NCBI GenBank assembly: GCA_964387845.1 | Contig: CAYLXA010000006.1 | Span: 64,001 to 128,000, forward strand | Direction of reading: 5' to 3' | Length of the DNA stretch: 64,000 nt | Origin: an uncultured bacterium | GTDB lineage: Bacteria; Omnitrophota; Omnitrophia; Omnitrophales; Abzuiibacteriaceae | Shown here: positions 4,151-52,400 of the stretch, in pieces | Numbering within the stretch: position 1 is the first letter of the stretch | How the letters are laid out: each line of letters opens with the position of its first letter | Notes under the pieces: generated by a model | The model's input: only the letters and a program-made list of their open reading frames with translations | The model's database searches: none | Told to the model about the DNA's origin: nothing | Made by a program: the position numbers and the translations under genes

Positions 4151-4151
4151 C

Positions 4152-6371: not shown

Positions 6372-6378
6372 TTAAGCC

Positions 6379-8688: not shown

Positions 8689-8693
8689 GCGGC

Positions 8694-11712: not shown

Positions 11713-11713
11713 T

Positions 11714-12139: not shown

Positions 12140-12149
12140 AGGAGGCGTC

Positions 12150-12308: not shown

Positions 12309-12326
12309 GAGGCGCATGATTTTGCA

Positions 12327-12791
12327 ATGAATTCAGCGATTATAAAACAAAGCCAAATTCGAGATGTAAAATTTGGAAAGAGCGTGACCGTCATTCAACC
12401 CGTCAATTTATACGAGTGCGAAATCGGCGACGATGCTTTTGTGGGCCCATTTGTGGAAATTCAAAAGGGTGTCAAAATCGGAAAAAGAACCCGGGTTCAA
12501 TCGCATGCGTTCATTTGCGAGTTGGTGACAATCGGCGATGATTGCTTTGTTTCGCATGGCGCCATGTTTATTAATGATACTTTTGGGGAGGGCGCTCCCG
12601 AGCGTGACCCGCAAAAATGGAAAAAAACAACGATTGGCAATCACGTTTCGATCGGAACCAACGCAACGATCATGCCGGTAAAAATCGCTGATAGCGTTGT
12701 AATCGGCGCGGGTTCTGTAGTCACTAAGGATATCCTAGAGCCCGGTATCTACGCCGGAAATCCTGCAAAGAAAATCAGGAGCATAAAGTAA
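12327..12791 (+). CDS. Hexapeptide-repeat (left-handed beta-helix) acyl/acetyltransferase
   Basis: There are repeated [LIV]-G-x-x-x-x hexads (IGDDAFVGP, IGKRTRV, IGDDCFVSHGAMF, IGNHVSIGTNATI, IGAGSVV). The ~150-aa size is typical of sugar N/O-acetyltransferases. Confidence 0.7.
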   Translation: MNSAIIKQSQIRDVKFGKSVTVIQPVNLYECEIGDDAFVGPFVEIQKGVKIGKRTRVQSHAFICELVTIGDDCFVSHGAMFINDTFGEGAPERDPQKWKKTTIGNHVSIGTNATIMPVKIADSVVIGAGSVVTKDILEPGIYAGNPAKKIRSIK

Positions 12792-15457: not shown

Positions 15458-15482
15458 CAATTCACAAAACTTGCAGCGATCA

Positions 15483-17426: not shown

Positions 17427-17447
17427 AACGGTTCAGAAAGATTAAGT

Positions 17448-18719: not shown

Positions 18720-18803
18720 GCCCGAAATTTGCCTTCCGTTTTCACCCCTCCGAGCCGATAAATTATCTGTAGTGTATACTTATTCAAGTCTTTAAATTTG
18801 TAA

Positions 18804-22037: not shown

Positions 22038-22124
22038 ATTTAAATTTCAAAATTAAAAATTCAAAATATTTGAAATATTAGGATTATTCGCACGGTTTTG
22101 AACTTTTAGTTTTGAATTTGTGAA

Positions 22125-25100: not shown

Positions 25101-25199
25101 TCGACTATCTTGACCTTGTTTGTCATTCCGAACATGTTCCTCTATTTTTCCGACCTGACGCGTCTTTTTCGAACTGAAAAAACTTCCAAGCAAATCTAG
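22125..25199 (+). CDS. RND efflux permease (AcrB/HAE1 family), subunit 2
   Basis: The N-terminus (VKKPVLVTVVFVGFLLLGILAAFRLPVELYQ) and the conserved GxxxD motif region (GLALSIGIMVDSAVVVMENV) match the family, and the length is 1024 aa. The start codon is uncertain (TTG 22125 or ATG 22134). Confidence 0.9.
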   Translation: MRSMGLPNLSVKKPVLVTVVFVGFLLLGILAAFRLPVELYQGTSSGIISIIIRARGGLAPVEVEHMITRPVEESVSTVSRLKTMYSNSREAESRVTLEFEPGTDMNFAALEVREKFSRVKSKLPPEIEKPVIANYSESESAVIVFAVISDTKTPEELREMVETDLKPWLERVDGVASVEIYGGRERKILVELDRDKMVAYSVSVEQVMDVLGASNINLLAGDYERGEYDFAVRTMGAFTSIDEIGNIGVKVTRQGSIIPLKEVATIKDSYLEPEDYARLNLNQNVSIYIKKTSLANTIKVVKLAKQVVKGYADEKVSELRIITVSDRAHSIERAIGDVRGSLILGVFLVTLMIYFALRSPVLALIISTAIPISVISTFLFMDFFGISLNVMTLSGLALSIGIMVDSAVVVMENVFKKREEGLSHEQAVREGSEEMWIPLLAASVTNLVVFLPIIFIDKEIQLIYQGFAFTVCISQVMSLLVAIMLIPMLLSKINFDVPSKPQESPAKPNFISKFYFWYEQLIRASFRLRYLMLSLIVMLFVASAWGLAHRDIDLPSTLEENEFQVVIFPLAGAKLETNDEVVKKIEEMLGQYKEVDLISTTVRKDDIRIFVRLVPRAKRSASKDVIMSQIKEKGNEEIKQVHEEYSLIVDEGASSEESKKMIINIFGLENETLEKLAHEFAKKINSVKGLTNLVMTDLRKRPEYSLVVDRARAAFYGLNVREVADSIHAQIRGMRPTKYHELTEGLEIETITRLQPIFRQKIDDLRNIFVVSPQTGVQVALEQFSSFYPSTGPQTIDRRNKYRYVFLKGDVNRPLETVGKEIKEAVKDVPMPKDYFWRFGGQYESLLQGRSELWLAFVITVVLIYMVLACMFQSFSEPVLVMIAIPLASIGVWLALTLTQKPLSQPVFIGMILLAGYVVNNSIILIDRINHLKKHIRDRNQILVKAGLDRLRPIMMTTGSTLIGFLPMAIAVSDSSELWSPLAVTVIGGLLTSTILTLFVIPNMFLYFSDLTRLFRTEKTSKQI

Positions 25200-34400: not shown

Positions 34401-37400
34401 TGGCGTTACAACCAGTACGACACGAGCCGTGTTTTAGGCGAAATCATGAAGCTTGACTCGCGTCAAGTGCATGTTGAATTAAATTCCGATTATGTGCGCC
34501 AAATCCGAAAAGAGTTTGCGGATGCGCCCAATTCTCTGAAATCGTTGGATCCCTATAAGCAGCAGGAAATTTATTTGAAGACAGCGATGGAAATTTTGAG
34601 TGACCGGATTGAATTGGCCCAGAGGCACCTGTCCAGCATCAGCTACGAACTTCGTTTCGATATCTTTTTGGCCAATAAGGCTTCGGACCTTTTGGCTCTG
34701 ATCGGCGGCTTTGGCGTCAGGAAAGGCAACGACCGGACACTTGGGCAAAAATACATTGACATCGCCAAAAAACAGATCGACCGCTACAAACAGTACGGCG
34801 ATGAGCGTTACAAGGTTGAAAAACTGGTTCGTGATTATCAAAAATTGAAAGAAAGATACGACACGACCTATACGGAATCCGTGAAGGCAGCGCAAAAACA
34901 TTATGAATTGGCCAAAAAGTTGGATGCGCTCGAAGTCATTCCGATTAACGAACTAGAACAGGCTTGGAAGGCCTATGAAAGTCAACTCAAGGAGAAAGAT
35001 GCGCTGTATGTACAACTTCAACGCATTGTTGCTGAGATGGAAGGGCTCCGCACTGCCCAGCTTTCAGCAGAATCGATTGAGAATCCGTCGCCAACCATGC
35101 GCGAACTTCAAAAGCTTGAGCAGCGCCTCAAAGATACGGATCAAATTGATTCGTTGGTTCAAATCAGGGAAGCCGAAGGTGTCACCGGCAATGAGCTTCA
35201 GTTTTATAAACGCATCCAGCAAAATCCGGACAAGGAAAGATCGGATATTCAAGCGGAGCGGGTTGAATTGGTAAGACAGCTGCGCGAAGATGCGAGCCGC
35301 ATTAGAGCGATTCAGGATAAAAGCGGGCTCAATATTGATTATCTCTATCCTCTGGATTCTCGAAAAGGTGAATGGATGTGGAAAACCGGCCGGGCAATCA
35401 AGGGGTTGGACGGTAAATATTACACAATCCCAATGCTAATTCCCATTAAGGCCGAATACCAGAGTTATGCGGAAAGTTTGATGGAACGCGGCCTCGCAAA
35501 ACAAAATTTCCTGGGTAACTTTCAATCATCATTTTCGGACCGCCATATTGAAGACCAAGCTCACGAGTTAATGAACCGGTATCTCGAAATCAGGCCGAAA
35601 GACGGACAAAAGCCTGCTTGGAGCCGCGAGGAACGAACACAGAAGATAAAAGAATTTAATGAAATGGCAGAGAGTTATTTAAAACGCCTCGAGGAACTTG
35701 TTCCGGCCTACGCTGCGCTTGATTATGCAGGAAGGCCGAAAAGTTATGGCGAGCGGCTCATGTCCGATGAGGAGTGGCAAAATTTTCACAGCGAATACAA
35801 AAAATTCGAGCGCAGTTATTATGCTGCGCAAGAAATGGTTGCGGAATTAAGCCAGGAAATTTTGCCGGCGACAGGCGATGCCGTCAATCCGCAGATTGAT
35901 GTCTTAAAAGCGCAAAAGTTAGCGGCTGAAACGGCCAAAAAATCAATCGATCTCAACATGTTTGATGAAGCGACAAACATCGCCGATGCTTCTGATTTGA
36001 CAATCCCTGAGCATATCATCGGGCCCGCGACTGTAAGGGCACAAACCACCGATGTGCCGGTCCGGGCTTGGCAAGAAGGCTTATTGTCGGCGGCAATGCC
36101 GATGATCCGAAAGCAGTCCAACGTTCTTTTTGACCTCAATATCCAGGGCTACAACTTCGAATTAGAAAGACTCTTCAAAAAAGATTTTGAAACCAAGGAA
36201 CTCCAGGCAATTCCCGTAATCGGCTGGTTTGTTCCGGGCAGCGATTCTGAAATTACGGAAATGAGAGCGCAGGTGTTGGTTATCCGCCAGAAAGTCATGA
36301 AGCCGGATGACAGCGGTTCGGGCGGCGGCCTTGGCGGTGGCATGGGTGGTGGCGGGCAATTACAGCTTCCGGGCAAATTGGGCAAACTCCAACAAATGAT
36401 GGGACAGATGCAGCAATTGATGGGTTCGTTTCAGGGCCTTGGAAACGGCGCGCAAACATTTCTCGGTGCGGCTGGTCAACGGTTTCCGATGGTAGCCCGT
36501 GCACAGGGCTTGCTGCAAGGAATCAATGCTCAGCAGCAAATCTTTAATCAATTTACAGGCGGCCAGAATTCTTCCCTCCTGCCGTTTGTCACAGGTCAAA
36601 TGAATCAGCTTAATCAAACCGGCCGGATTCCGTCTGTCGGTCTCGCGTCTTCCGGAGCGACAGGGCCGCACGGAGCACTGCAAACATCGACACCGGGCCG
36701 AGTCAGCGGCGAAGCTTATTCGGCGGATGCGTTTAATCAGGGACTTGATTCACTCAGGCAGGGCGGTGATTTAGCGAAGGAAGTGACGGGTAAGCTGCAA
36801 GGTCAAGGCGGTGAGCAGGGTGGTATGACAGAAGAGATCGAATATGAAATTGCCGGCGTGTTTACGGTCCAATTCAAATTAACGGGCAGCAATGAAGAAA
36901 AACAGAATCAGCTGCGCACTCTTATTGCACTTAATGAACAAAATAAAGTGCTTTACGAAACTGACCAGCAGAAGAAACTCCTCGAAATCGCAATTGATTA
37001 TGAGGGTAAGGTCCAGTTGCTCAGGGCAAGAAAGCTTCACCGCGAATTTGTCAATACCACACGGCGAGCTATCCTCGATAAATTCACCGAGTGGCGTGTA
37101 ACGCCGGCGAAACAGGTCGAATTTGAAGCAGATTTAGCCGTCATCGACAAGAACATTGACGACCTAGAAAAAGAAATCGCCGAGACGCCCAATAAAATCA
37201 GGGAAGCGCTGAAGGTTACACCGGAAGCTGCCAACGGCCTGCTGCACATGATGAAATCTGAAATCGAAAAGCACGGCATTGTCGATATTCGCGAACTGAA
37301 CGGCATTGAGAATTTACGCCGCCAAATTGTTGAGAACCCATATGCCGACCGGGCCGCAGGGTACCGTGTGCTTGCTGCTCAGCTGGAAGAATCGCGCGCA

Positions 37401-40400
37401 AAGTTATTTGAGAAAATCAAGAACGCTTATCAGGTTGAGCTGAGCGTCAGCACAAAGCTGGAATTCAATGTGGTGCTTCAGGAATTGGGTTACGCGATCC
37501 GCAATGCAGTCGCGGGTGAACAGCGCGGTACGATTAATGATTTTCTGGGTCAGATTCAAACGGGCCTGAATCCGCAGGAAATGCAAGGCCAAAGAGACCG
37601 GTTAGAGGCGTTGACGACCGCGATCCGGAAAAGCGGTCTCAAGCGCGAAGTGATGGATGCTTTATTTGAAGTTGCGATCGTCGAACGTGTCATGCAGGAA
37701 CGGGTCCGTCAAAATGAGAAAAATCGAATGGAGCAGCTCATTCGTTTAGAGGAAGCGAAGCTGCGTCTTCGGCGCGAAGAAATCCAGCTTGCAAAAATCC
37801 ATGAACAGAAAAGAATCACGCCCGCGGACAATTGGATCAAGCAAGTCCTTCTGTCCGCGGAGATCTATATTCAGGAGCTTTTGCTTATGGGTGCGCGGGA
37901 TGATCTGGCGAAAGCGATAATGCAGTCGCTTTCTGCGATCGCGATGAGCGAGGAAGAAATCCGGTCTTTGCAGGTTTTAACCAACGCAGAGCAGAGAATT
38001 CATGAATCAAACCGCCGGATCGGTCTCCTACAGGCGCAAGCCGTTGAAAGTGATGTGTCAACCCGGGAAGAATTTTTTGAACTCCAGAGAGAGTTGAAAT
38101 GGCTTTATGAGCGAAGAGACCAATATTCCTTGCCAAGCACACCGGACGGCTCTTTGAATGAGTTAGACCAAAAAATTGCAGAAAATCATAAAGCCATTCA
38201 AGCATTGGTTGCTGATGCGCTTCTGCGCAATCCGAAAATCAAAGAAAAAGTTACGAAAGAAGAAGTCATTCGTGATGAGCTCTTAATTTCTAAAAAGAAT
38301 ATCGAAGAAGAAAAGCAGGCTGTGATCAGCCGCCACGATCAAGAGGTGAAAGTGATTTTGGATCCGATGATCCAGCTCCATCAAGAACGTGCACAATTGG
38401 GAATTGATGCGGCCAATCGGCTCGATGTTGAGCGCGCCAAAAAGGGAGAGGACCCGGTTTTGGTCGAGCTCAGCGATGCGCGCCTTGCGCAAAGCGTGAG
38501 CGAAGTGGAGGGAATTGACCGAAACGCTGTCTTGGATGTGATGAGTAAGGTCATGAACGTGATCGGTGATATTGAAGTGGCGCAAACCATGCTGCGGGAA
38601 TGGGACGGAAAAGCGTTACCCCGTTACCTGGATCGCCTGCTCAGGAATCTGTATTTTCTGGCCGGCACCAATCAATTAGACGATGTGCTGCGCGGGACGG
38701 CGCAAGGGTCATTCAAAATGGGTATCGGCGGTTCGCTCATTAGCGATGAAGACCTGAGAAATTTAATCCGCGCGGAAGCCTCGCGCTGGGCGATTCGTGT
38801 GAAAGAAGTTGTCCGCGATAAGATCATCCGGGACGAGCAGGCAAAAATCTACAGCGAATATCTGCAGTATGTCAGTTTGATTGAAGAACTTTATATCGAC
38901 CTCAAAAATATCCGAGCCCTCGAGAAAGCAATCAAGGCTTACGAAGCCCGCGCTAAACGCCAATACGATACAGAGCGCTTAAACGATGCAACCGGCCCTT
39001 ATGAAAAATTAGAACAGGCGAAAGTCCGGCTTTATGTGTCTTTAAAAAGAATCAAGGTCCAGCGCGCACAGCTCGAATTTTTGACTCAGGAATATTTACC
39101 GCACAATGTGTCGGTCTTTAAATCCGTCAAGGCGTCAGGGAAGAGTGTTGAGGAAAATCTGGAGATCGAATTCCGAACCTCGGCGGCTCATGAACAAGGC
39201 GTCGACTTGGAAGCGCTTGGGGCCATGCTCAGCGGTGAAGTGGCTGCCGAAAATCCGTTTCCGGCCGGTTCCGACAAGGCAGTGTTTTGGAATAAATTTT
39301 ATAGATCCAATATCCGCGGCGATGAATTTATCCGTGAAGTCCGCAAGCTGCGGATGTCTCCGGAAGATGTGTCAAAACTCAAAAAAGAAAACGGGCTCGA
39401 GCAATGGATTTGGGGTTCTTCGGACAATCAGTTTCAAGTCGCAAAGGCCATGAACGAAAATTTAAATGCCGATGCCATTGGCTTTTTCCTATTTCCATTT
39501 GGCAGCTTCAAGTTTGACATCAACGCGTTTTTGGGCGGTTCCTGGGACTTCAAAAATAAACCCGAGTTCTTGAATATTATCAACGCTTCAGCCGAAGTGG
39601 AGTTTGACTGGGGCGCCAAATGGCAAGCCTTCCAATCGGCCGTTCAGAAATCTTTGAATGAAGCGTTTAAGCTAGATGAAATTTCAAATGACGCCGTCCG
39701 CCGACGCCATCAAATGCTCATGGAATATGCGTTTATGCAAATCATGTACGAAGCGTCCCAAGAAATATTGAAAACCGCCATCGAAAATGAATCCACATGG
39801 TATAAAGCGCTCATGAGGGGCAAGATTGACTGGGATAAATATTACACATCAAACACGCACGGCCTTGCGCGTATTTGGGACCTCGAGCGTACATTAAAAG
39901 AAGAATGGGTTGCATTGCATGCAGCCAGCCGCAACATTCAAAATTCTCTTGAGGAATCAGGAATTCAAAGCACCTCTGTTTTGATCCAGTCTTTCCCGCT
40001 TCCATTGCCGCCTGAAATTGAACACAAACTGGTGTCGGAAGCCGAGATTCAATTACAAGAGCATGCCGCCCAACAAGAAAAGGCGGCTCTTGAAAAAGCT
40101 GCCCAAGATGCAGCTGCAAGAACGAAATTCTTTTCCGAATTTAAAGACTTATTTTCAAGATTAAAATCACTGACCGAGAACATGTTGGTTAATCTCGAAA
40201 ACGTCATGAATAAACTCGGCGACCTGCAGGATCAATATAAGCCCACGCAGCATCACGGGGAGCTCTCACCTGAAGCAAAAGCAATTTTGCCTGACACGAA
40301 TGAATTTCTGAGAGTCTTGAAAGTCAAAACCCAGAGCGGTGTTGATTCTGTTGATTTGGAAACATTTGCCGAACGAATGGCAACGTTTGGAAGAGAGCGG

Positions 40401-43400
40401 CATATGTCGTCCGAGGATCTGCAAAATCTAATACGGTCTGCGATTGAAATTGCCAAAAAATTAGAAGCTGCACCGGGCGAAGCCCCGAATGAATTACAGA
40501 CAAAATGGGCTGCCATGTCTGCGCCCGGCACAAAAGCGGACGGCTCTGCGTTCTTGATGAGTGAACGTTGGCCGCCATTCCTGGAAATTCCTTTGCGGCA
40601 TCTGTTTACTCAGGAAGAAATCATACGCTCGAGAGGTTCTATCGCTGATAAGAATCTCAATTTATATCAAATCGGCGCCATTCTACTTTCCGCTATGCGC
40701 GAGCAAGCGGCTAAGGAGCTGGACTATCGGTTTGAGAACAATTTAGACGAACTGGTAAACGGTGTTGAAGCCTACAAACAAATCCGTGCCGGCTCCGGCG
40801 ATGCGTCAGCTGTGCAGCGCTATCTAAGTTGGTATAGGAAATGGGTGATCCCCGTAGGCAGTGCCGAGTCACTATTTTCAACCGGAGTTCTCCTTTACCG
40901 TCCTTGGGTTAAATTCCAAAGAGCCGGGGATCAGGAAATTAACATTGATGACATCAGACAGCATTGGTCGTTTGTGTCAACGTCATTTGTGAAGCATATT
41001 CAAAAATCCGAGAAATTTCAGGCAATCGCGCAATATTTAGGTCTGGATCCGGTTGAGTTTTTTGACAGTCAAAAAGATCAAGGCAGGCTCTACGCCATTA
41101 TTTCAGAACTGCTTAATACCGGCATTATTAAGACGCTGCCGACAACCGAAGCCGAACTGGAAGCTCTGAACGCCGAAATTGATCATTTCTTTGGCGAGCT
41201 CATGCCTTTGATTGAAGAACGCAAGTATTTCTACCTGACCGTAGGCGCTCTTCCGAATTACAGTGATTTAACCCAAATGCAGCATTACACCGCATTGGAC
41301 GGCAGATTAACAGGAACCGGCGGAGCGGAACTGCCATTCGCTAAATTCCAAGAAGATGCAGCGCGGATGGAAGACGGTATCGGCAAGTTACAAAAACTCT
41401 TACCTTCCGATATTATTTTTTATCAGCAAGTTAAAGAGGCGAAAAATGTTTTGGATGTTATCAAGAATGCCTCCGATTACTCTCAAATTTCAGACTTAGA
41501 AGGTCTCATGGACCATTTGCGAGAAATCGTGGACTACGCCCGCGAAACCTATGCGTCGTTGCTGCTGGGCGATGCCTACTATCATTATGGATTTTTCCGG
41601 GAGAATAAAGCAGTGCTGGTCCAGTTAAATTTAATAGATAAAAAGGATCTTAACTCCAAGGGGGCGCTGAAGCCGGATAGCTTGCGGCCAGTTACGCAAA
41701 AGTATAACCAGCTACTTCTCCATTCAAAGGATTACATTGAGCATTTTTACTTGGGTAAACCAATTGATTTCTCAAGCATGGATCAAATTGGTGTTTGGAA
41801 TGCGCTTGCGCAGACCAAAGCCGCCGGTTTGGATGATACGGTTTTCTCTGCGTATTTGAATTGGGCAAGCCGAATTGCAGGTATTCGTGAGAAAAGTGCG
41901 CTGTCCGATGCTAACCGCGAGCTTGCAGCGCAATTATGGAAAATCATTCCGGGACTTCAAGATAAAATATCAGAACAAAAATATGCGGAAGCTCTCGCAT
42001 CAGGCCTTGCGGTCCATATTCTTTTAAATCCCGAGCTGACCGAAGCTGATTTGATCCAGCTCATACAAAATATCAAGGCAATGTTGCAGAATCCGGAGTT
42101 GGTAGAGAGCGTTATACGAGAGTCACAGTCGGAGCTGGAAATTATATACGGCGAATTACGCTCCATTGATTTAACACGGCAGAAAGATTTTGGCATTTTC
42201 TTCAACGCATTTGCGGAAGCCCATGAATTGGGATTCAGCCAGTTTCTGGTCCGTCATCAGAGAACTATGAATTTGATTCAAGAGCATCAACGCATCCGGG
42301 AGCAGGAGAAAGGCACCGGCTCTCGAGCGGAAACCGCTTTGAGCCGCGCTATCCTGATCGGCAGTCAAATTGAAAGAGTTAAGAACGGTGACGGCGCAGT
42401 ACAGATTGATGAAATCTCATTCTTCCAAAATCAAAAAGCGCGCAATTCGGTCATGTGGGTTTTGAGCGGCATGGCAGACGAAGGTGTTGATCCTTTTGTT
42501 TTGAAATCTGAAGCTATTTTGGATTTTCTTAGGGAATTTTATTCAGATCAGCCGGTTCGTTACGATCATCTTGGCCGTGTTAGCGTGGATGCCGAGTCGA
42601 AAACAGCTGTGGAATTAGCAGCCGAGCTTGCTCGTGAGCGTGAAGTTGTATTTCAAGGCCAGGACGCACTCACTATTTCGGCAGAAGGCATCAAGCAAAG
42701 CCGTGTGATTTGGAACCGGGTGATGGCAGAGTTGGGCGGCATGGCGGACGAAGGCCTCCAAACCTGGATCCAAAAGCATCGCGGCAGCGATAAGCAAATC
42801 GGCGTCTTTCCAATGCTCTCAAACCGCGAACAGTTGAACAAATTATTTCCGTCTATTGAAGCATTCTATCAATCTATATTTGGAGCTGCCAATACACCCG
42901 AAATCAATCCAGAGACTTTCAAAGCCAATAAAAGGGTACAGATGCTTGTCACAGCCTGGTTGGGTTCGGCTGCTGAAGAGGGATTGGCAGAATGGAACGC
43001 CAAAAGCGATGTGATTGCTCGAATATTAAGCAATCCTGAAGAAAGAAAGCAAGTGATCGAAGCAACGCGGGAATATGCACATGCTCTGGAAAAAATATTG
43101 AAGATTGATTATCCGGAAATCAGCGAACAATCTTTGGTTGATGATCGCCGCGCGCGCGCTTTGGTTTTGGCTTGGACGGGCGCGCAGCAAGAGGACGGAA
43201 AAGTAAAATGGGCACGGAAAAACTCGGATATCATCACTTTCTCAGAGCGAGTCAATGCGCAAGCCGATTTTGCGGAGGGATTGGATAATGTCACGAGGCA
43301 TTATTATGAGGCCAAGTATGGGGAAGCGGTCGGCAGGTCCTGGACGCCGAGCCAACGAGGCCAGCAAGTCGGTTTGATTTTCATGCTGGCACGCCAGTAT

Positions 43401-46400
43401 GTGGAAAATCCAAATCTAACGGATGGCCGGCTGATCGAGTATGTTAACGCAATGGCTGATCTTGCCCCTGTCTTTATCGGAAGAGATGCATCATCCCGTT
43501 CGTTTGATCAATCCAGAATTCATCAAACCTATTTGAGGCTGATTGGTGAGACGAAATCGCGCCATGATCAGCAGCATGAAATGGGATGGGTTGATGCAGA
43601 ATTGGCGTATATGGCCGAACTGATTGGCTGGGATGGAGTTAATTGGAAGAAGCGAGACCGCTGGCGCTCACTAAGTTCTTCCGAAAAAATCGAGCACCGC
43701 TATCGAGTGCTCGAAAAAGCGACGGACCCTGTGATCCAGCAAGAAGCCAGGGATTTGATGGCGCTGGTTTCTTCCAAATCTTCGGATCAATGGGATCTGC
43801 GCGCTCATCCTTCAGACTTGGGCTTTTTGGTGACATGGGCAGACATGAAAATGGAGGCCGGGGAAGCAACCGATCTTTTCGGACAATACCGGCATGTGAT
43901 TGATTCTTCGGCATTCAGCCGTTATTTAAAGGAATTTGATATTGCCCAAGAATTCCGAAAGGAACTTGCGTCGACTTTTTCTGAAGTTGTGAAGAAGGCG
44001 AACGGGGAAGACGCGGACCGAAACCAAATCGAGCGTTTTTATGAACTCATGGGCCGCGTGTCATCTTTTGCGAAATTTACATCACTGCAATTTGATCAAA
44101 AAATAAAAGTCAATTTGGAAGTCATCGATGCGCTGAAGCGCTATTATGGCCAGTCTGCTTCTGATTCCAGCCAGGCAATGATCGACGGCGTCATTGATTT
44201 GTTATCCGTCCTTAAGATTGAGCCGGTTGAGCTGGCCGGAATGCAAGCTGAGAATTATTATCAACTCCGCGAAATGATGTACCTCATGGCAAAGATTTCT
44301 GAATACCGCAGAAACCGCGAGATGGCAAATGACGGCCCCGTTCCGCAAGCCTATGTTGAAGATATGAAAAGGGAATATAGGTCTGTTTTTGTTGAAAGTA
44401 TGCTGCCGGGATTTGCGCAGAAAATAGTGCCGGCCAAACACGGAAAATTGGAAAACTGGATCGGTGATTTTGAAAGCATTATCCGTGAATTGGCTGATTA
44501 TCCCATAGAGCTTGAGAGCAGCGATGCAATTTCTCAATATAATTTTGCGCGATTCCTGAAAAATCTAGAAGAGGAAGGCATTGTGCTTGATGACGCGTCA
44601 GTTAAAATTTACGAGCGGGTGTTCAAGCAGTACCAGCTCATGGGCCTCGCAAGCTGGTGGCTTGATCAGAAGCTTCCTGAGGCCGAGGAGCAATTTACGC
44701 TTTCTGAAATTAAAGAAAGGATTCAGAGAAAGAAGCTTGTCTGGGCTCTGAATGAGAAATACTGGAATTCAGAAAGTTTGCACATGCCAGTAACTGCGGA
44801 CGAGATATCATTCTTGGCCGATTTAGAGCTTTACGAAGACGAGTATGAACACTTTTTTAGAATGAGTGCCCTTTTCCAGAACTGGGCATCAGCTCACTTG
44901 GGCCGCCATCTTTTCTTTGATGAAATTATCTACTTCTATTTTGCTCCCGGTAAATATTTCGGTGACCTGGTCATGCCATTCCGCGGCGGCTTGTCTCGGC
45001 TTTTAACTTGGGGCCAGGACCCCGATTTGCTCTCCAGGTTTAGAGCGAAACATTTATTTGAAAATGTTTTAACCGGACCCGAACAAGCGCTTTATCAAGT
45101 GGCCATGAATCGAGAGAATGAAGAAAGGCGCTTTATTTTGTGGCATGGACAGAAACAGTTGCTAAGAGTGATTGGGCTGGGCCCGGATTATGAAGATTAC
45201 TGGTATGACATTCTGCATGAAAAGCAAACGCTGGGCGAATATGCAAGCGAGAAATATCTTAAAGAGTTGTTGGTAATGGGGCGTGTTCTGAGCGAGGGTG
45301 TTCGATGGCTTGCACTCGGCAATCACTTTTCATATGACGACAACATGCTGACTGATGAATTTAAGCGGAATCAATACATCATTTTAAGGCTGCTGACACG
45401 CCGCGAATACCGCATATTGACTTCAGATGAAGAGAAAATGAGCATCAAAAAGTTGATTGAGTATACGCGCGATCAAACCAAAAACAAGAAAGTCGAAATT
45501 GAAAATCCTTCGGAATGGGTTGAATCGCTAAAGGAATTAGCCCGAGCCCATAATCGTGTTATTGAAACCGAGCAAGAGCTTAAAGAAATCATTAAAAGTA
45601 TTTTATGGGATGCGGAAACGATTATCGACGAAGCTGATCGCGAATACGATGTGAAGCTTGATCAGGATTCTGTCCTGAAAGTAATCATGGAGCAGCGCAT
45701 CAACGGAGAGCTGCATCAAATCACCAAAGCAGAAGAAATGATTACAAAACATTTCGCCAATTCAGTTATTGGCAGGAATTCGATCGAATTGAGCAATGAA
45801 GAAAATCAGATGCCTGTCTCTGTATTGATTGAAAAATGGCTCAACGATTATGAACTTCAAAATACGCCGATTGCAGGCCTGAAAGACCGCTGGATATTGG
45901 CTGCCAATGACAGATCGTTGGATTATGTTTCGATTAAGACGATCTTTTCAGACCTTAAAACAATGCAGGACGCTTGGCGTAATGCGCCGCTGTTTAGGCC
46001 GATGGATTTAATCGAGTCATTAAAACTTGTGAATAAAGTCCGGCGCTTTGGTTTGGATAATATCGGCATTGTGGAGCCTGAAATATTAACGCCCGTTCAA
46101 AGAACGGAAAAATATAAGAAGAATAAGAAATTGTTTTTAGGAATGATCGGAAGCGATTTGATCGCGGATTCAACACAGCAAATCGCCATTCTTTTCAACC
46201 AGCAAACTAAAAACTGGAGCATTCAAAAAACAATTGACGATCTTGAGAAAGACAAATCAATTGAAACAAAACAAGAAAGCTTCCGCTTGATCCATGGTGC
46301 CGCCGTTGTATTGGTCCTGTCTCTTATTTTAGTAACCATTCGGGCGCATTATTTGAAATGGAGACAAATGCAGTCGGCTAAGAAGGCAGGGCTGCCGACA

Positions 46401-49400
46401 CCGCAAACGCCGTATCGCCAGGGTTTGTTCAAGAAAGTGAGCGAATCGGTTAAAGGGTTTTCGCCTTTGACTTGGGTCAATATTATTTATTTTGCCTCGG
46501 TGTTGCTGATCGCCGGCTCTATGTCGTGGGCTTACTTTGTTGCGCACGCTTGGGCAATTTCACATTCAACGTTTTCGACTTTGATGGTCATTATGTTTTC
46601 TTATTTGAGTTTAACCAACGCTCACATCTTGGTTGATCGTCTGATTACGCTCCCAAAATTCAGGGACCGATTATTTAGAAAGCAGCCTGTGGATGATGTA
46701 AAAACACCTAATTTTAAAGATGCTTTCCGTGCAGGAAATTTTCCTCCCGGGCATCAGGCGGTTGTTGCCATTATCACTCAAGCCAAAGGGAACACTTTTG
46801 GGAAGCTTGATCAAAGAACCGGCGAGTTGAAAGGGCAAGTGATTGAAAATTTAATGGTCTCATTAAAGAATAATCCCGGCGTGCCCGGTGTCATTATTCA
46901 GGCCGGACAGGATTTGGATGATGTAGAAACGAACCGGCAAATCCGCATGATCGAGGCGCTTGAGAAGGCGTTAGGAACGCGCGTTTATTATTTCAGGCGC
47001 AATAATTTATTTTCGGCAGGTGATATCAATCTTGAGAAGAAATTCGGTGCTTTCCAGGAATATATGCGATTTGTCGGTGACGGAGCTATGTTTGCCGAGA
47101 ATGAAACCGATCAATATCCGGGCCGTCACTTTGGCTTGGATGTTACGAAGAATGTGAGTTGGGTTGCGGGTTGGACAGTTTTAGCAGCAACGCTTTTCAA
47201 TGCATTAATTCCCGGGCTGTTATTGAATCCTCTTGGGCTTGTCGTTGGCATTCTGGGAATTTCTCTTGGCGTTGGGTATCTTTGGACTTTGTGGAAATAT
47301 GGGCAAGCGAAGCGAATCTCAATTAAGACCATTGTCGGAAAGAATGAGCTCTCGGCGTTGACGCGTTCAACCCTTCCATATTATGACGTCATCTACGGCG
47401 ACTTAGGAGCGATCGGTTTTGTCGATATGGAAAGCGGACAATCTCTCCAAGGAAGCAGGACTTGGCGTGCGGACGAGGCATATTGGCAAAAAATAAAATT
47501 AGACACTGAACACCCGAACAAAATTTGGCTTTCATTTATCTTGGACGACAAAAACAAAGTTGGCATGAACTCTACCAACGAAGACACGGAGGGTCTGACA
47601 GAGGCGGATCGATGGCTGCGAGACCGAATGAAAGTTGAGAACCCTCTTGAGCGGCGCGAACAAAATGCCTATTACGAAGCAGTTCGAAAAGCAGCGGAAA
47701 CGATGTATCGCGAAAGTTGGGCAGCCATGGGGCAGCCCGTTTATGAAATTGGCAACCCGAATGCCAGCATGTTTTCGGAGATGCTTTCAATTGCTGCCCG
47801 AGTCGGTGAATTTTATGCGGGCGCGCAGAAAATATTCGGCCGCGGACGGGCGAATTTTACCGGCAAAGGGCCCGTTGTCGTGGACAGGTGGCTGCATGGA
47901 ACGCGTGAACGCCATCAGAAAATCATGTGGGGTTTCGGCTTGGGCAGTATCGGCGGTGTTTTGGTGGGTGCGCTGATTTCGTCTTTGCTCTTTGGTGTTG
48001 GGAATATCGGCTTCGGAATGCTAATTGGATATTTCTTGGGCGGAGCAATCCTCGGGAATTTTGAAATGCGGTACGGAACCGCATACGGCGTTATTTATTA
48101 CGGAGAACTTTCACATGATTATGCGGAAGGCGGCAGTGTGGGTGCGGCCTATCTCAGCAATGTCGGAATCACGGAAGATGCAACAACGGATTTGGCTAAA
48201 GAGAACGAGCGCGGCCCAACGCGCTGGTTCCAAGGCGTTATCCCGTACTGGCGTCATCAATTTGGCCCGGGCTACACACTCATTGATCGTTGGATGATGT
48301 TTCTGGCGGAGAAAATGTATTTAAATGATACGTTGTTCCTATTTTGGTTAATAGGCGGATTTGTCGGGATTACGTTTTCCGGTTTGGCTGACACTTTCTA
48401 TCCAGTGGCGCGTCTTCAAGAATATTCAGAACCTCTTTATGCAATGGGGTTGTATATATTGAACATGTTGGTCATCATAGGTTTTGCTAACTTTGTTGGA
48501 GCTTTTTGGAAGAGCGCCGATAACGCAGGCGTCGCTACTTCTAAGGAGAGGTTCCAGGCAATTGCTCGTTCCACGATGATTTATCTCAACAAACCCTTTA
48601 TCACGACCGCATACGCAATTCCGAACTTGTTCCGCGTATTAGTCGGCGGCGAACATCCGAGAGCGCGCGATTGGGCTCCGGAGCACAAGCTTAGGGCATT
48701 GGTTTTTGGATCACTTATTGGGGCAATTAATTTACTCTTACTTGCCAACCTTTTTGTCGGCTGGGTGTCGATTTCGTGGATGGTGCCGGCGGCAGTTTTT
48801 GTGGCTTCATTTTATGCGATTCATCGTTTGGCGGGGCGGTATATTCCGGTAGCCCGAATTTTTGCGGAACTTTTATATTTAACTCTCAAATTTTCTCTAT
48901 TTGCTATTCCAATCGTGGTTTTATCGGCCTATTCGTATATAAATGAACCTTTAGTGGCTTTTCTCGAGAAATTCTCGTTCATCAGCTTTATCAGCGCACC
49001 TATCCAGGCGCTCTTGATTCAAATTTTCGGAACTATCATTTTAGAGGCCAAAGCATTGAAATGGATTCGTGAACTTGAAGAAATTTTAAAAGAACCGCTG
49101 CCTTGGAGAGGGTTTACGCTGGTCGCCGGGTCGAAGGGGCCTTTGAAAATGTATGAATCGGCTGTGATGGTAAAGTGGTCGTTGATTACTACCGTTGCGG
49201 TGATTTTATCCCACGTAGTCATCACCTCTAACTTTTGGGTTATTTCAGGATGGGGAATTCCTCTCTTCGTGTCCTGGTCAATTGGGTGGTTTTATGTTTG
49301 GTATACCTCAAAAATGATGCCTGATTTTGTTCGTGAAACAAAAACAGATAAATCCGGAGAAGTCATTAAAGATGCTCAAGGTAAAGCCAAACTATTCCCG

Positions 49401-52400
49401 CGGCTATGGAAATCTATACCGAAACTGGCCATCGCCGAACTTGTAAAGACTTCGAAGAATAAAGAAGATAAGGAGATAATCAGAATCGGAGATGTGCAGA
49501 TTAAAATGGAAGACATTCGATGGAGGACGGTCCCGACCATTCTCTTTCTTTATACGAAAGAAGCCCTGTCTCTTAGCAGTATGAAGCAAAATTTGAATCC
49601 AAGTGTTCTTTGGAAGAAAATTAAATCTGCGCCTGCGCGGGCAGACCATTGGGCAAATGGTCTTTTTATGCTCGGAGTGGTGTTCGGCACTTTCCTATTT
49701 TTGGGTGTTGTGATCGGCACTCCGCTTTATTTATGGTTCGGGACCGGTCACTTATTTTTACCAACCGCATCGTTCTGGTCGAAGGTCGGAATCGTTTGGC
49801 AGTATTACATCGGAGCCGTAGTTGCCGCTCTGGTGTTGCCGGGCGTGTTTGGCCATTTATTTGCATTGACCGTATTTCCGCTGGTTTGGATCAATCGCCA
49901 ACTTGTCTTAATTAAAACGTTCTTCACGAAGGTTGTTGATACCAAGGGGCCTAATTTTAAAAAGGGCCATGACGACAAAGGATCGCCCGAAAGTATTCAA
50001 GAAGGCGTGCAAAATGTTCAACTCGAAGTTGCTAACTTTATTTCTCAAATTTCAAACCGCAAGATTTCAGGATTTGCCGATGAAGTGATGAGAGAAAAAG
50101 ATCCGGTCAAAATATTCGACATGTTCTTCAATCTGGATGCTTTTAAAATATGGAAATTTAGGATCGGCGGCAGTCTTTTCAGGTGGATTCATCAAGTAAA
50201 AATGAAGCGAGAAGCTTGGCGGATGAGTCAGCGTCCAGACGATTATATGTCGGTTGCACAACATCAGAACGAGATGTTTATTGCCTTAAAGGCGCTTTTT
50301 GAAGGCCGTACAGATTTTCTGAATCAAAAGACTTTTGATAAACAGGCTTTAGATTCCGCGCTCTTGAAGCGGCTACAAGAAAGCGTGGACAGTTTGAGCG
50401 AGAGAGAAAAAACATTGCTTGCCTTGACGGTTGTGCTCAAAGATTTTGGTAAAATCGCGACTGCAGGCCCCCTGGACCCTGTTGCAGGTTCGAATATCGT
50501 AGAAAAATTGCTGACAAAGCTCCAATTTGATCCGAAAGATGTCCACTTTATCAAGCAGCTTATTCTCAGAAACCGCGAGCTTGGGTCATTGCATTGGGGT
50601 GAAAAAGACCCGCTCAAGATTTTATCCGGTTTGGAAGTTGAAAAAACAGAGCTATTTCTAAAACTGCTGACCATTATTTATGTGGTGGATGTTTCGGCGG
50701 TAGGCACGGGAAAGCTAACCTCCACACATTTAAGTAATGCATTATTTATGCAGGATCAAAGCAACCTTTATTCCTTTGCTTTGACCTGGCCCGAGTTTCG
50801 CGCGGCAAGTTTTTATAGTAAAGCCGCAGGGCAGGTATTGGATTTAAACCAGCCGCAGTTTACCAATCATATAGATCCGGTTTTGTTGCAGGAAATCAAA
50901 GAGAGCGGCGGAAATTATGATTTCCGGGAATTTATGTATAACGTTACATTTCAAAGAGCGATCAATATTTTCCGCTATTTTGTCCGGAACGGACACCCCG
51001 AAAATGTCACCAAACTTTTATATATCTTTTTCAGGCTGTATCAAATTACCGGTATGAAATACATCGGAATTTTGGATGACAGCGAGCCGGTAGCCGAAGC
51101 TTTGGATAAAAAACTGTCCTCGATTTCATGGGAGGAGCTCCGGTTTGCTCGTGTTGAAGCCCCGTCTGTTGAAGTGAAATTGCAGAAAGAAACGGAGTGG
51201 GATACGACGCGGGATACTGTCTATGCTATCGAAAAGAGCACGGTGGTGGTAAGAAAGAAAACAAATTTAGATACCGTAGAAACCGTTCTGAGCCTGCCTT
51301 TTCAATATACGGATGACCACCAGCAAGTTCTTATTAACGCAGATCCGGACCCGTCCCCCCGCTCAGAGCTTCGCCAAATTAAAATCGGTGATTTGACATG
51401 GCTTTCTTCTATCAGTGAGTTTCAGAAACTCAAGGCTACAAACCCAGCTCGCGCAGCTCATATGGCAGAAGTGGTTCGATATTTTAAAGCATTTTCCGAA
51501 GGTGATTTTGCCTATTTTGCGGAAAGGCTGCAAGATCGTGCTGCAACTCAGCCGGACAAAATTGCAAGGTTTGAAACAAAGATGAGTGATCTCAAGAAGA
51601 AATTCGATAGTTTGAACGATGACCAGCGTTTGGCGCTGTGGCTTGCGGTCAATCTACACGATATCGGCTATTTAACCGGCGGAAGCAAAGACGAGAGCAC
51701 GCGAGGTTCCGTCTTGGCTGAAGAAATTTTGACACGGGAAGGCGTAAAGGAATCTGTAGTTGACCTTGCAAGCCGGATCGTGCTCGCGCATGAACTGTTG
51801 GGCAATGTGGTGGTCGGAGAGCGCGCACCGCAATCGGCCTGGCCCAGCATCGCGCCGTTATTTGATTTTCTGCAAATCCACACGGTGGTTGATGTGGCTG
51901 GTTATGGGTTGATGACTACTTATGTGTTGGATTGGTTTTTGGAAGTCAAAGACAAGTTAGAGCAGATTGCACAGACTTTTGATCAATATAGGTTGGAACG
52001 TTTGGTCAAGCCGGCTCCTAATGCTGATGCTATTAGTGCAGATGCTCTGGAGCATTTAAACGATGCTATCCGAAAAATTTTTGGAGATGAAGAAGAGATT
52101 TTGCGTTCTGTGCTGCGAAGCCGAGTTGAATTTTTAAGCCGCTCCAGCACCATTGCCCGCAAATTGGCTGCAATAGATCCTTCATATGAAGGTTATGCCA
52201 AATTTATGCGCATGGCCGGGCATCTCGCTCTCTTGGCGGGTGAGGACGCCAGCATTTCTGTTTTCAGCGATTTAGATCGGTTTGATGGCCGGCCCACTTC
52301 TAAAAAGGATATGGATCAGGCGTTGGAAGCTATCGCTCAGCGCATATTAGAATTGCCAAACACGATCAGTATTACGGATGCACGGTATCATTTGGAAGAG

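What the first reader, a model, noticed from the sequence alone, without database searches (positions are those of the whole stretch)
46280..49920. A ~1,200-aa polytopic membrane domain (16-20 helices) near the C-terminal third of the giant protein
Most giant bacterial surface proteins have a single anchor. Here a dense cluster of long hydrophobic helices, several of them glycine-rich (IGGVLVGALISSLLFGVGNIGFGMLIGYFLGGAILG), is separated by soluble loops of 150-200 aa. It resembles a transporter- or channel-like core fused to the scaffold. Together with the N-terminal signal peptide and the hydrophobic cluster at nt 28640-29230, the protein would cross the inner membrane many times. It could alternatively anchor in two different membranes.
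Basis: partly seen in the sequence, partly recalled or inferred. Interest (0 to 1): 0.6.

Follow-up and report, generated by a model that had tools for sequence, protein, structure and literature searches.

The report
Hidden glucan-synthase-like membrane module

Summary
Residues 6933-8141 (nt 46287-49913) of a 9,371-aa ORF (nt 25491-53606) contain 17-18 hydrophobic segments. Short, charge-poor turns alternate with large K/R-rich loops.

The region is not a known transporter. It is a conserved ~1,200-aa module found in only 19 sequence clusters, nearly all giant proteins or fragments, among 1.84 billion representatives. [quoted passage not shown]
- A module profile searched against PDB sequences hits only Cgs below E=0.1 (E=0.008).
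- Profile-profile comparison gives 97.4% probability, E=1e-11, in collinear blocks. Shuffled controls give E>0.6.
- The catalytic base (LSHD), one DxD Asp, FTGKG and the RW motif are invariant in both families.

Differences from Cgs: two membrane hairpins sit inside the catalytic domain, about 11 extra helices are present, one UDP-binding Asp is not conserved, and there is no cyclase or GH94 domain.

Best reading: a membrane-embedded, probably processive glucan synthase. Product and export are inferred. I class it as a new variant of a known kind.

The parts
25491..53606 (+). Giant ORF, 9,371 aa, that contains the module
   Evidence: No internal stop codon. Identical over 20,350 nt (window 43651-64000) to Logan assembly SRR15237813.
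46287..49913 (+). Whole membrane module, aa 6933-8141 (17-18 TM helices plus a split GT-A domain)
   Evidence: Hydropathy and charge bias. Conserved as a unit in P0001-P0010 and L083-L085.
46287..46346 (+). TM1 (aa 6933-6952). Followed by a K/R-rich loop, so predicted N-out/C-in. Additional relative to Cgs.
   Evidence: Conserved in homologues.
46473..46634 (+). TM2-TM3 hairpin (aa 6995-7048), ending in the near-invariant 'VDRL'. Occupies the position of Cgs TM1-2.
   Evidence: On its own the similarity to Cgs TM1-2 is not significant (E=0.25).
46731..47081 (+). GT block 1 (aa 7081-7197): N-terminal Rossmann-like half of the GT-A domain. Motifs 'PPGHQAVVAIITQ', 'NNPG..VIIQAG', 'YYFRR', 'NLEKKFGA'. 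Corresponds to Cgs ~473-595.
   Evidence: hhalign 97.4%, E=1.1e-11. HMMER versus 8rf0/8rf9. AF2 pLDDT 73-92 with a beta-alpha-beta pattern.
47157..47294 (+). TM4-TM5 hairpin (aa 7223-7268), an insertion inside the GT domain relative to Cgs. It follows the ERKRGK-equivalent 'EKKFGA'.
   Evidence: Aligns to a gap in all 8 Cgs sequences. 3-aa connecting turn with K/R-rich flanks.
47373..47564 (+). Beta-rich segment ending in 'WLSFILDDKN' (aa 7295-7358). D7352 is the candidate DxD aspartate, equivalent to Cgs D624.
   Evidence: D7352, K7354 and N7355 are invariant in 14/14 family members, and D7352 aligns with the first Asp of Cgs 'TLDxD' in 8/8. AF2 pLDDT 83-91. The low-stringency hhalign run placed the Cgs motif 12 residues upstream.
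47676..47891 (+). GT block 2 (aa 7396-7467): 'VRKAAETM..AAMGQP...NFTGKGPVVVDRW'. Corresponds to Cgs ~630-720, including the FTGKG motif.
   Evidence: hhalign E=4.2e-4, collinear. G7458 and K7459 are invariant in both families.
47925..48062 (+). TM6-TM7 glycine-rich hairpin (aa 7479-7524), the second insertion inside the GT domain, between FTGKG and LSHD.
   Evidence: Aligns to a gap in all Cgs sequences. 4-aa turn. Part of the most conserved stretch of the family.
48102..48326 (+). GT block 3 (aa 7538-7612): 'ELSHDYAEGG' (D7543 = catalytic-base equivalent of Cgs D739), 'ITED' (E7562), 'RGPTRWFQG' (R7578/W7579 = RW motif), 'DRW..MYLN'.
   Evidence: hhalign 91.3%, E=9.3e-7. H7542, D7543, E7546, E7562, R7574, R7578, W7579 and G7582 are invariant in 13/13 family and 8/8 Cgs sequences. 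Residue roles are taken from PMC10901819.
48327..49043 (+). TM8-TM13 (aa 7613-7851), three hairpins. TM8-9 follow the RW block as Cgs TM3-4 do.
   Evidence: No significant similarity to Cgs on their own.
49086..49313 (+). 'LKEPLPW' loop plus TM14-TM15 ('VSWSIGWFYVWYTSK'), aa 7866-7941. Weak collinear match to Cgs 'LLEWTTA' ... 'LLW.LAP.IAW' (TM5-6 region).
   Evidence: hhalign E=0.032, at the expected position. HMMER third block. Suggestive only.
49653..49913 (+). TM16 and TM17(/18), aa 8055-8141. Last helices of the module. The count here is uncertain (2 or 3).
   Evidence: Conserved in P0001, P0005, P0007 and L083.
42669..46286 (+). Conserved ~1,200-aa domain immediately upstream of TM1 (aa 5727-6932). 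It always travels with the module and is predicted to lie on the non-cytoplasmic side.
   Evidence: phmmer E 1e-168 to 1e-217 against P0001, P0002, P0003 and L083. No Pfam or PDB hit. Not similar to the Cgs N-terminal domain.

Best explanation

Shown:
- The three large loops (aa 7049-7222, 7269-7478, 7525-7612) are collinear with the Cgs GT domain.
- They carry its invariant catalytic motifs: the second UDP-coordinating Asp (D7352), FTGKG, the LSHD catalytic base (D7543), a conserved Glu (E7562) and the RW motif (R7578/W7579).
- All large loops are K/R-rich and the connecting turns are tiny. This puts the whole catalytic domain on one side of the membrane.

Inferred:
- That side is the cytoplasm, where nucleotide sugars are available.
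- The module polymerises a sugar, most likely glucose from UDP-glucose into a beta-glucan, possibly beta-1,2-linked. The only sequences I compared that share the LSHDxxE...RW signature are Cgs and E. coli OpgH, both described as beta-1,2-glucan synthases (OpgH's activity is from my own knowledge, not from a tool result).
- The enlarged helix bundle either conducts the chain across the inner membrane or holds it for other parts of the giant protein. The bundle comprises the six Cgs-equivalent positions, TM1, two hairpins inserted into the GT domain, and about six more helices.

The predicted topology is N-out/C-in. This would place the ~6,900 upstream residues, including the conserved domain at aa 5727-6932, outside the cytoplasm and the C-terminal HD-like domains inside.
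For: Rarity and conservation: only 19 hits among 1.84 billion representatives, nearly all giant proteins or fragments. The whole module is conserved.

Unbiased PDB sequence search with the module profile: the only hits below E=0.1 are Cgs entries 8rf0_A and 8rf9_A (E=0.008 and 0.011), in three collinear blocks.

Profile-profile comparison with eight plasmid-borne Cgs sequences:
- 97.4% probability, E=1.1e-11 for GT block 1.
- 91.3%, E=9.3e-7 for the LSHD-RW block.
- E=4.2e-4 for the middle block and E=0.032 for the last TM hairpin.
- One collinear path of 508 columns.

Controls: reversed or column-shuffled Cgs profiles and unrelated polytopic proteins from the same window score 12-20 (E 0.27-0.99), against 107.6 for the real comparison.

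Catalytic columns are invariant in 13-14 family and 8 Cgs sequences. The residue roles come from the Cgs cryo-EM paper (PMC10901819).

Charge bias and hairpin geometry support the topology.

Domain context in homologues:
- P0006 carries PF10091 downstream, the same Pfam family that covers the Cgs cyclase region.
- P0009 carries a GT5 starch-synthase domain downstream.
- P0005 carries a TolC-like OEP domain upstream. This fits N-out/C-in.

Pfam has no model covering the GT84 catalytic domain: Sinorhizobium NdvB itself hits only GH94, PF10091 and DUF3131. This explains the absence of domain hits in the giant protein.
Against: - The Cgs D527 equivalent (first UDP-coordinating Asp) is not conserved. 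The window protein has Q7137/A7138 at that position. Only 5 of 13 relatives have Asp, one position earlier.
- The DxD assignment depends on the aligner. MAFFT pairs LDDKN with Cgs TLDxD, while the low-stringency hhalign run placed it 12 residues upstream.
- The Cgs primer tyrosine (Y694) aligns with F7441, and the column is not conserved as Tyr in the family.
- Both AF2 models are of low overall confidence (mean pLDDT 44.7 and 53.3), and the LSHD-RW half is poorly modelled. Foldseek hits were not significant (best E=0.1).
- No cyclase or GH94 domain was found in this protein.
- Cgs itself has no export channel (PMC10901819), so export cannot be inferred from homology.
- No sugar-nucleotide or glucan-export genes were seen in the 64-kb window.
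- Membrane insertion of the two intra-domain hairpins rests on hydropathy only.
Confidence: 0.72

Rival explanations
1. Cgs-like synthase without export. The module polymerises a glucan on the cytoplasmic face, as Cgs does. The many extra helices only anchor and organise the giant protein. The product is handled by other domains or by a separate exporter.
For: In Cgs the membrane domain is compact and forms no export channel, and a separate ABC transporter (Cgt, cited in the Cgs paper's reference list) exports the glucan (PMC10901819). Cgs is the closest relative. Sugar-handling domains lie downstream of the module in homologues; I assume they are cytoplasmic.
Against: The family has about 11 more helices than Cgs. 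These include two conserved hairpins inserted at sites that, from the Cgs paper's description of R586 and the IF1h loop, I infer lie near the membrane face of the GT domain (PMC10901819). That is more than anchoring needs. No ABC exporter was seen in the window.
Confidence: 0.3
2. Degenerate pseudo-enzyme. The module descends from a glucan synthase, has lost activity, and now serves as a large membrane anchor or scaffold for the giant protein.
For: The first UDP-coordinating Asp (Cgs D527) is not conserved and the primer Tyr is absent. The module is very divergent (14-22% identity to Cgs).
Against: The catalytic base, one DxD Asp, FTGKG, the conserved Glu and the RW motif are invariant across family members that are only 22-60% identical to the window protein over this region. 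This is the pattern expected under selection for catalysis.
Confidence: 0.12
3. Transporter or channel core unrelated to glycan synthesis, for example an MFS-, RND- or MscS-like unit fused to a scaffold.
For: Many helices, several of them glycine-rich, as in channel-lining helices.
Against: No transporter family was detected by Pfam, NCBIfam or PDB searches. hhalign against the window's own AcrB-like protein is at background level. The large loops are accounted for as a glycosyltransferase domain.
Confidence: 0.04
4. The segments are not membrane-spanning. They are buried helices of a large soluble domain.
For: Some segments are only marginally hydrophobic on my position-independent insertion-scale sum (TM15, TM17 and TM18 above 4 kcal/mol).
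Against: There are 17-18 uncharged runs of 18-60 aa arranged as hairpins with 2-21-aa turns and strict alternation of K/R content. The homologous Cgs region is an experimentally solved membrane domain (PMC10901819).
Confidence: 0.02

Closest known systems
[quoted passage not shown]
   Same: - The order of elements is the same: TM hairpin, GT N-half, ERKRGK/EKKFG, DxD strand, FTGKG, LSHD base, Glu, RW, TM helices, then 'LxW' loop and final hairpin.
- The catalytic base, second UDP-coordinating Asp and RW arginine are conserved (PMC10901819).
   Different: - 17-18 helices instead of 6.
- Two TM hairpins are inserted inside the GT domain.
- An extra N-terminal TM1 implies an extracytoplasmic upstream region. 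In Cgs all soluble domains are cytoplasmic.
- The D527 equivalent and the Y694 primer tyrosine are not conserved.
- No similarity to the Cgs N-terminal domain.
- No cyclase (PF10091/GH189) or GH94 phosphorylase domain in this protein.
- It is embedded at 74-87% of a 9,371-aa protein from Omnitrophota, whereas the Cgs sequences used here are ~2,800-aa proteobacterial proteins.
OpgH/MdoH (GT2), the osmoregulated periplasmic glucan backbone synthase of E. coli
   Same: It shares the 'LSHDxxE ... E ... RW.xG' block followed by a TM helix (BLASTP E=1.9; hhalign E=8.7e-4). OpgH is itself related to Cgs (94.8%, E=5e-8). It is a membrane-embedded synthase with a cytoplasmic GT domain between TM helices.
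   Different: The similarity is weak and limited to one block. OpgH hits Pfam Glycos_transf_2 and Glyco_trans_2_3, while the giant module hits neither. In the E. coli OpgH sequence I saw no hydrophobic hairpin within the GT region; its helix count was not determined here.
Processive membrane-embedded GT2 synthases (BcsA cellulose synthase, hyaluronan synthase, chitin synthase)
   Different: No detectable sequence-profile similarity (A1 versus E. coli BcsA, E=0.45). The 'LSHD' motif stands in place of 'TED'. No PilZ domain.
Giant multi-TM proteins of Candidatus Omnitrophota ('Archaeovorin'-type and others)
   Same: The genome context is Omnitrophota (NusA 64-69% identical to Omnitrophota MAGs). 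The ORF exceeds 7,000 aa, has many TM helices and few annotated domains. Sugar-metabolism domains occur in relatives (10.1101/2023.11.21.568195; 10.64898/2026.06.07.730766).
   Different: The published analyses treat the TM helices as anchors or exclude TM regions from structure prediction. They do not report a Cgs/GT84-like module. This protein has no SecA-DEAD, dockerin or TSP3 Pfam hit.

Membership tests
[quoted passage not shown] | Significant sequence similarity to the GT84 catalytic domain | tested here: met
   HMMER profile versus PDB: Cgs is the only hit below E=0.1 (0.008). hhalign 97.4%, E=1.1e-11 and 91.3%, E=9.3e-7. Shuffled, reversed and unrelated controls give E 0.27-0.99.
[quoted passage not shown] | GT-A (modified GT2) fold docked to transmembrane helices | tested here: met
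   [not shown]
[quoted passage not shown] | Catalytic base Asp of 'LSHD' (Cgs D739) | tested here: met
   D7543 is invariant in 13/13 family and 8/8 Cgs sequences. The role comes from PMC10901819.
[quoted passage not shown] | RW motif arginine (Cgs R773) | tested here: met
   R7578 and W7579 are invariant in both families.
[quoted passage not shown] | Second UDP-coordinating Asp (Cgs D624, 'TLDxD') | tested here: met
   D7352 of 'FILDDKN' is invariant in 14/14 and aligns with the Cgs Asp in 8/8 under MAFFT. The low-stringency hhalign path puts the Cgs motif 12 residues upstream, so the assignment has some uncertainty.
[quoted passage not shown] | First UDP-coordinating Asp (Cgs D527) | tested here: not met
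   The aligned column is A7138 in the window protein (T/A/G/K/V in the family). Asp occurs one position earlier in 5 of 13 relatives, but the window protein has Gln there. D7141 aligns with the second Cgs Asp of 'SDWxDA'.
[quoted passage not shown] | Autoglycosylated primer tyrosine in the IF1-homology loop (Cgs Y694) | tested here: not met
   Y694 aligns with F7441. The family column is F or A, and the next residue is Y, F or D. The alignment in this loop is of low confidence.
[quoted passage not shown] | Cgs architecture: cytoplasmic N-terminal domain, 6 TM helices, cyclase domain (PF10091/GH189-like), GH94 phosphorylase | tested here: not met
   17-18 helices. No PF10091 or GH94 hit anywhere in the 9,371 aa, whereas NdvB hits both. 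The upstream domain is unrelated to the Cgs N-terminal domain. One homologue (P0006) does carry PF10091.
[quoted passage not shown] | Makes beta-1,2-glucan from UDP-glucose | not testable with these tools
   Needs biochemistry.
GT2 OpgH/MdoH | Match to Pfam Glycos_transf_2 / Glyco_trans_2_3 | tested here: not met
   No hit even at E<=10 for the region. E. coli OpgH hits at 3.9e-20 and 1.8e-10.
GT2 OpgH/MdoH | Profile similarity over the catalytic domain | tested here: inconclusive
   Only the LSHD-RW block aligns: hhalign E=8.7e-4, probability 23%.
Known transporter or channel families (MFS, RND, MscS etc.) | Match to a curated transporter model or a solved transporter | tested here: not met
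   Pfam, NCBIfam and PDB searches gave no such hit. hhalign versus an AcrB-like protein gave E=0.33.
Giant Omnitrophota proteins (as described by West-Roberts et al. 2023) | Omnitrophota origin, ORF of at least ~7,000 aa, numerous TM helices | tested here: met
   NusA neighbour is 64-69% identical to Omnitrophota MAGs. 9,371 aa. About 20 or more hydrophobic helices in total.
Giant Omnitrophota proteins (as described by West-Roberts et al. 2023) | Divergent SecA DEAD helicase domain (stated for most full-length giants) | tested here: not met
   No Pfam hit at E<=0.1 over the whole protein. A very divergent copy cannot be excluded.

The most novel reading that the evidence does not exclude
The module is a new class of synthase-translocon.
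- A Cgs-type catalytic domain has been rebuilt so that two membrane hairpins grow out of the GT-A fold itself. With about nine further helices these form an export path that Cgs lacks.
- The conserved 1,200-aa domain just upstream of TM1 sits on the outer face, in the position BcsB holds for cellulose synthase. It would receive the glucan.
- The giant exported protein would then build, and perhaps be decorated by or embedded in, its own beta-glucan coat. This would link the unexplained giant proteins of Omnitrophota to polysaccharide synthesis as well as to adhesion or prey degradation.
Probability: 0.2. Interest if true: 0.8.

Novelty: new variant of a known kind. Interest (0 to 1): 0.6.

Why it matters
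Giant Omnitrophota proteins are abundant, largely unannotated and of unknown function. Published work treats their many membrane helices as anchors and left those regions out of structure prediction. [quoted passage not shown]

This gives a concrete, testable biochemical activity for ~1,200 residues of a 9,371-residue protein. It suggests that at least one family of these giants makes a polysaccharide. It also explains why domain databases see nothing: Pfam has no model that covers the GT84 catalytic domain.

For glycobiology, the module offers a natural variant in which membrane hairpins are inserted into a GT-A fold and one canonical UDP-binding Asp is missing. That could show how synthase and membrane domains co-evolve, and whether a non-exporting Cgs-type enzyme can become an exporter.

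If the activity proved to be absent, the finding would reduce to one more divergent glycosyltransferase-derived anchor.

Tried and rejected
- Direct domain searches found nothing for the region: Pfam at E<=10, NCBIfam, and phmmer against PDB.
- The search for homologous proteins returned no hit three times: with the region, with the 12-sequence alignment, and with the 10-sequence core block. The word-index step is probably swamped by hydrophobic words, or the giant proteins are not indexed.
- A genome-contig scan with the region found no relative among GTDB species representatives.
- I fetched 80 NusA-anchored loci to look for syntenic orthologues. tblastn of the whole giant protein against them found nothing (which replaces the incomplete that skipped a file). 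The gene is therefore not conserved upstream of nusA in related genomes.
- The metagenome scan gave only three more loci (L083-L085).
- The first AF2 run on 1,200 aa was too poor to use (pLDDT 44.7). Foldseek on both models gave only non-significant hits, although GT-A enzymes ranked first.
- I tested whether the upstream conserved domain is the Cgs N-terminal domain. It is not (E=0.49).
- I tested BcsA as a relative by sequence profile. There is no signal.
- I considered an HD-GYP type regulator for the C-terminal HD-like region and did not see the GYP motif (by eye).
- I rejected assembly artefact or gene fusion by misassembly. The ORF is uninterrupted, identical in an independent assembly, and at least ten homologues keep the same upstream-domain-plus-module order.

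Full report
**What is there**

The window carries one uninterrupted ORF at nt 25491-53606 on the + strand. It encodes 9,371 aa. The finding's coordinates correspond to aa ~6931-8143.

Hydropathy scanning and a search for long uncharged runs find 17-18 hydrophobic segments between aa 6933 and 8141. Only about four are found in the remaining 8,160 residues. On a simple position-independent sum of a membrane-insertion scale (values recalled from Hessa et al. 2005), the count is 16 inside the region and 3 outside. The quoted glycine-rich peptide is at aa 7486-7521.

The segments are arranged as eight hairpins. Their connecting turns are 2-21 aa long and contain 0-1 Lys/Arg. All the larger loops (42, 174, 210, 88, 62, 14, 44 and 114 aa) are K/R-rich.

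No dedicated topology predictor was available.

The sequence is identical over 20,350 nt to an independent public assembly of run SRR15237813.

**Whose genome**

Downstream lies the nusA-infB-rbfA-truB-ribF-rpsO-pnp cluster. Upstream lies an RND efflux operon. The NusA protein is 64-69% identical to those of Candidatus Omnitrophota MAGs.

This phylum is already known for giant ORFs with many predicted transmembrane helices (PMC10066038; bioRxiv 10.1101/2023.11.21.568195; 10.64898/2026.06.07.730766). The first of the two preprints excluded helix-rich regions from structure prediction. The second reads the helices as inner-membrane anchors. A multi-helix region in such a protein is therefore not surprising in itself. 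The open question is what this one is.

**No curated model sees it, but it is a conserved module**

- Pfam, NCBIfam and a direct PDB sequence search gave nothing for the region.
- An exhaustive HMMER scan of 1.84 billion representative proteins found only 19 relatives, nearly all 2,500-8,000-aa proteins or fragments.
- These relatives match the whole span aa ~6914-8153 in order. The strongest conservation is at aa ~7389-7654.
- A metagenome scan added three more giant ORFs.
- The ~1,200 residues just upstream of the first helix (aa 5727-6932) are even more conserved in the same proteins, with E down to 1e-217.

**Identification**

Reading the loops, I noticed 'LSHDYAEG ... TED ... RWFQG'. This recalls the 'LSHDFVEA ... 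YEE ... RRWCHGN' block of E. coli OpgH. A pairwise BLASTP aligned the two blocks but was not significant (E=1.9). That was a lead, not a test. Four tests followed.

1. PDB sequence search with a profile. A profile of the module (alignment A1, 12 sequences) was searched against all PDB chain sequences. [quoted passage not shown] The match fell into three collinear blocks.

2. Profile-profile comparison. I collected eight diverse plasmid-borne Cgs genes and aligned their residues 350-1100 (A3).
   - hhalign gave 97.4% probability and E=1.1e-11 for the N-terminal half of the glycosyltransferase domain.
   - It gave 91.3% and E=9.3e-7 for the LSHD-RW block.
   - It gave E=4.2e-4 for the intervening 'VRKA..MAH..GQP..FTGKG' block.
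   - It gave E=0.032 for the 'LPW ... SW..G..WYTSK' loop and hairpin at the position of Cgs TM5-6.
   - With a permissive setting all blocks lie on one collinear path of 508 columns.

3. Controls. Reversed or column-shuffled Cgs profiles, and two unrelated polytopic proteins from this window, score 12-20 (E 0.27-0.99). The real comparison scores 107.6. For scale, Cgs versus E. coli OpgH gives E=5e-8. Neither Cgs nor the module is detectably similar to BcsA by this method.

4. Structure. A 625-residue construct (aa 7056-7680) was folded with family sequences only.
   - Confidence is modest overall (mean pLDDT 53). It is good (73-92) for a beta-alpha-beta N-half and for a beta-rich segment ending in 'FILDD'.
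   - Foldseek gave only non-significant hits, with GT-A enzymes on top.

**Catalytic residues**

The Cgs cryo-EM study names D527 and D624 as UDP ligands, D739 as catalytic base and R773 of the RW motif (PMC10901819). I compared these in a joint alignment of 14 family and 8 Cgs sequences.

| Cgs residue or motif | Equivalent in the window protein | Conservation |
|---|---|---|
| D739 (catalytic base, 'LSHD') | D7543 | invariant in both families |
| R773/W774 (RW motif) | R7578/W7579 | invariant in both families |
| FTGKG | G7458/K7459 | invariant in both families |
| two Glu columns and an Arg upstream of RW | E7546, E7562, R7574 | invariant in both families |
| D624 (first Asp of 'TLDxD') | D7352 of 'FILDDKN' | invariant in the family; aligns in MAFFT, but the low-stringency hhalign run shifts it by 12 residues |
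| D527 (UDP ligand) | A7138, preceded by Q7137 | not conserved in the family |
| Y694 (primer tyrosine) | F7441 | column not conserved as Tyr |

**How it differs from Cgs**

- Relative to all eight Cgs sequences, two hydrophobic hairpins are insertions inside the catalytic domain. TM4-5 (aa 7223-7268) follows the ERKRGK-equivalent 'EKKFGA'. The glycine-rich TM6-7 (aa 7479-7524) lies between FTGKG and LSHD.
- Each insertion holds exactly two helices joined by a 3-4-residue turn. This keeps the three GT pieces on the same side of the membrane.
- In Cgs the corresponding sites lie near the IF1-homology loop and R586, which the paper places close to the interface helices. Contact with the membrane is therefore plausible, but this is an inference.
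- The module also has an extra TM1 and about six more helices after the RW block.
- It has no detectable Cgs N-terminal domain.
- It has no PF10091 cyclase-type domain or GH94 domain.
- Pfam has no model covering the GT84 catalytic region. Sinorhizobium NdvB hits only GH94, PF10091 and DUF3131. That explains the earlier silence of the domain searches.

**Context in relatives**

- P0006 carries PF10091 downstream of its module. This is the same Pfam family that marks the Cgs cyclase region.
- P0009 carries a GT5 starch-synthase domain and DUF4922 downstream.
- P0005 carries a TolC-like OEP domain upstream.

These placements agree with the topology implied by the charge bias: N-terminal side out, C-terminal side in. 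In the window protein the C-terminal part has HD-like domains and the N-terminus has a signal-peptide-like start. The location of the huge upstream part remains an inference.

**Most likely mechanism**

This is a membrane-embedded, probably processive glycosyltransferase of the Cgs/OpgH lineage. It would use a nucleotide sugar on the cytoplasmic face. The product is most plausibly a beta-glucan and possibly beta-1,2-linked, because Cgs and E. coli OpgH, the only compared sequences with this motif signature, are both described as making that backbone.

- Shown: homology, motif conservation, one-sided placement of the catalytic pieces, and conservation of the module as a unit.
- Inferred: activity, sugar, linkage, and whether the enlarged bundle exports the chain.

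Cgs itself has no export channel (PMC10901819), so the non-exporting variant is a serious rival. A degenerate anchor is less likely given the invariant catalytic columns. A transporter unrelated to glycan synthesis, or a soluble domain, is not supported.

**Novelty**

The literature held by the tools did not link Omnitrophota giant proteins to a glucan synthase, and none of the 25 listed papers (of 60) that mention GT84 concerns Omnitrophota. The kind of system, a GT-A synthase fused to a helix bundle, is known. The arrangement here is a new variant: hairpins inside the catalytic fold, about 11 extra helices, one missing UDP ligand, and embedding in a giant exported protein. I score interest at 0.6.

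Noticed in passing
window 15471-25199 (+): A complete RND efflux set lies directly upstream of the giant ORF on the same strand: TolC-like OEP, HlyD-type adaptor and two AcrB-type pumps. One homologous giant protein (P0005) has an OEP domain fused upstream of its module, which hints at a functional link to outer-membrane export.
   Followed up: partly
window 42669-46286 (aa 5727-6932 of the giant ORF): This is the most conserved part of the protein family (phmmer E down to 1e-217 against P0001, P0002, P0003 and L083). It always lies immediately upstream of TM1 of the module. It has no Pfam or PDB hit and is unrelated to the Cgs N-terminal domain. It is predicted to be extracytoplasmic.
   Followed up: partly
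window 25518-27188 (aa 10-566): The signal-peptide-like start (…NTIAWA/DG) is followed by a ~550-aa N-terminal domain shared with P0001, P0002, P0008 and P0010 (E 1e-113 to 1e-139). No curated family matches it.
   Followed up: no
window 50172-51890 (aa ~8228-8800): HD-like domains lie downstream of the module. The only NCBIfam hit in the whole protein is to the HD region of GlnD uridylyltransferase (E=4e-5, aa 8716-8773). The stretch aa 8228-8554 is shared with the C-terminus of P0010. It may be a cytoplasmic regulatory or hydrolytic unit.
   Followed up: no
window 28983-29213 (aa 1165-1241): A second, smaller hydrophobic cluster (2-4 helices) has K/R-rich flanks on both sides. Whether its helix count is odd or even decides if the 5,700 residues between it and the module are inside or outside the cell. 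This could not be resolved here.
   Followed up: partly
window ~36300-36860 (aa ~3605-3790): A Gly/Gln/Met-rich low-complexity stretch (GGGLGGGMGGGGQLQLPGKLGKLQQMMGQMQQLMG…) lies in the middle of the giant protein.
   Followed up: no
window 9886-12791 (+): A NodU/CmcH-type carbamoyltransferase and a hexapeptide-repeat acyltransferase lie ~14 kb upstream. Enzymes of these types often modify polysaccharides. No other sugar-pathway gene was seen in the window.
   Followed up: no
P0006 (aa ~6150-6830) and P0009 (aa ~3850-6250), homologous giant proteins: Relatives carry sugar-handling domains downstream of the module. P0006 has HAD plus PF10091 ('glucoamylase', the family that covers the Cgs cyclase region). 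P0009 has DUF4922 and a GT5 starch-synthase/GT1 domain.
   Followed up: partly
L003-L082 (80 NusA-anchored loci from GTDB genomes): None of the related Omnitrophota or other genomes has any tblastn match to the giant protein within 10 kb of nusA. The gene's position here is therefore not syntenic, and the family looks patchy and rare.
   Followed up: yes
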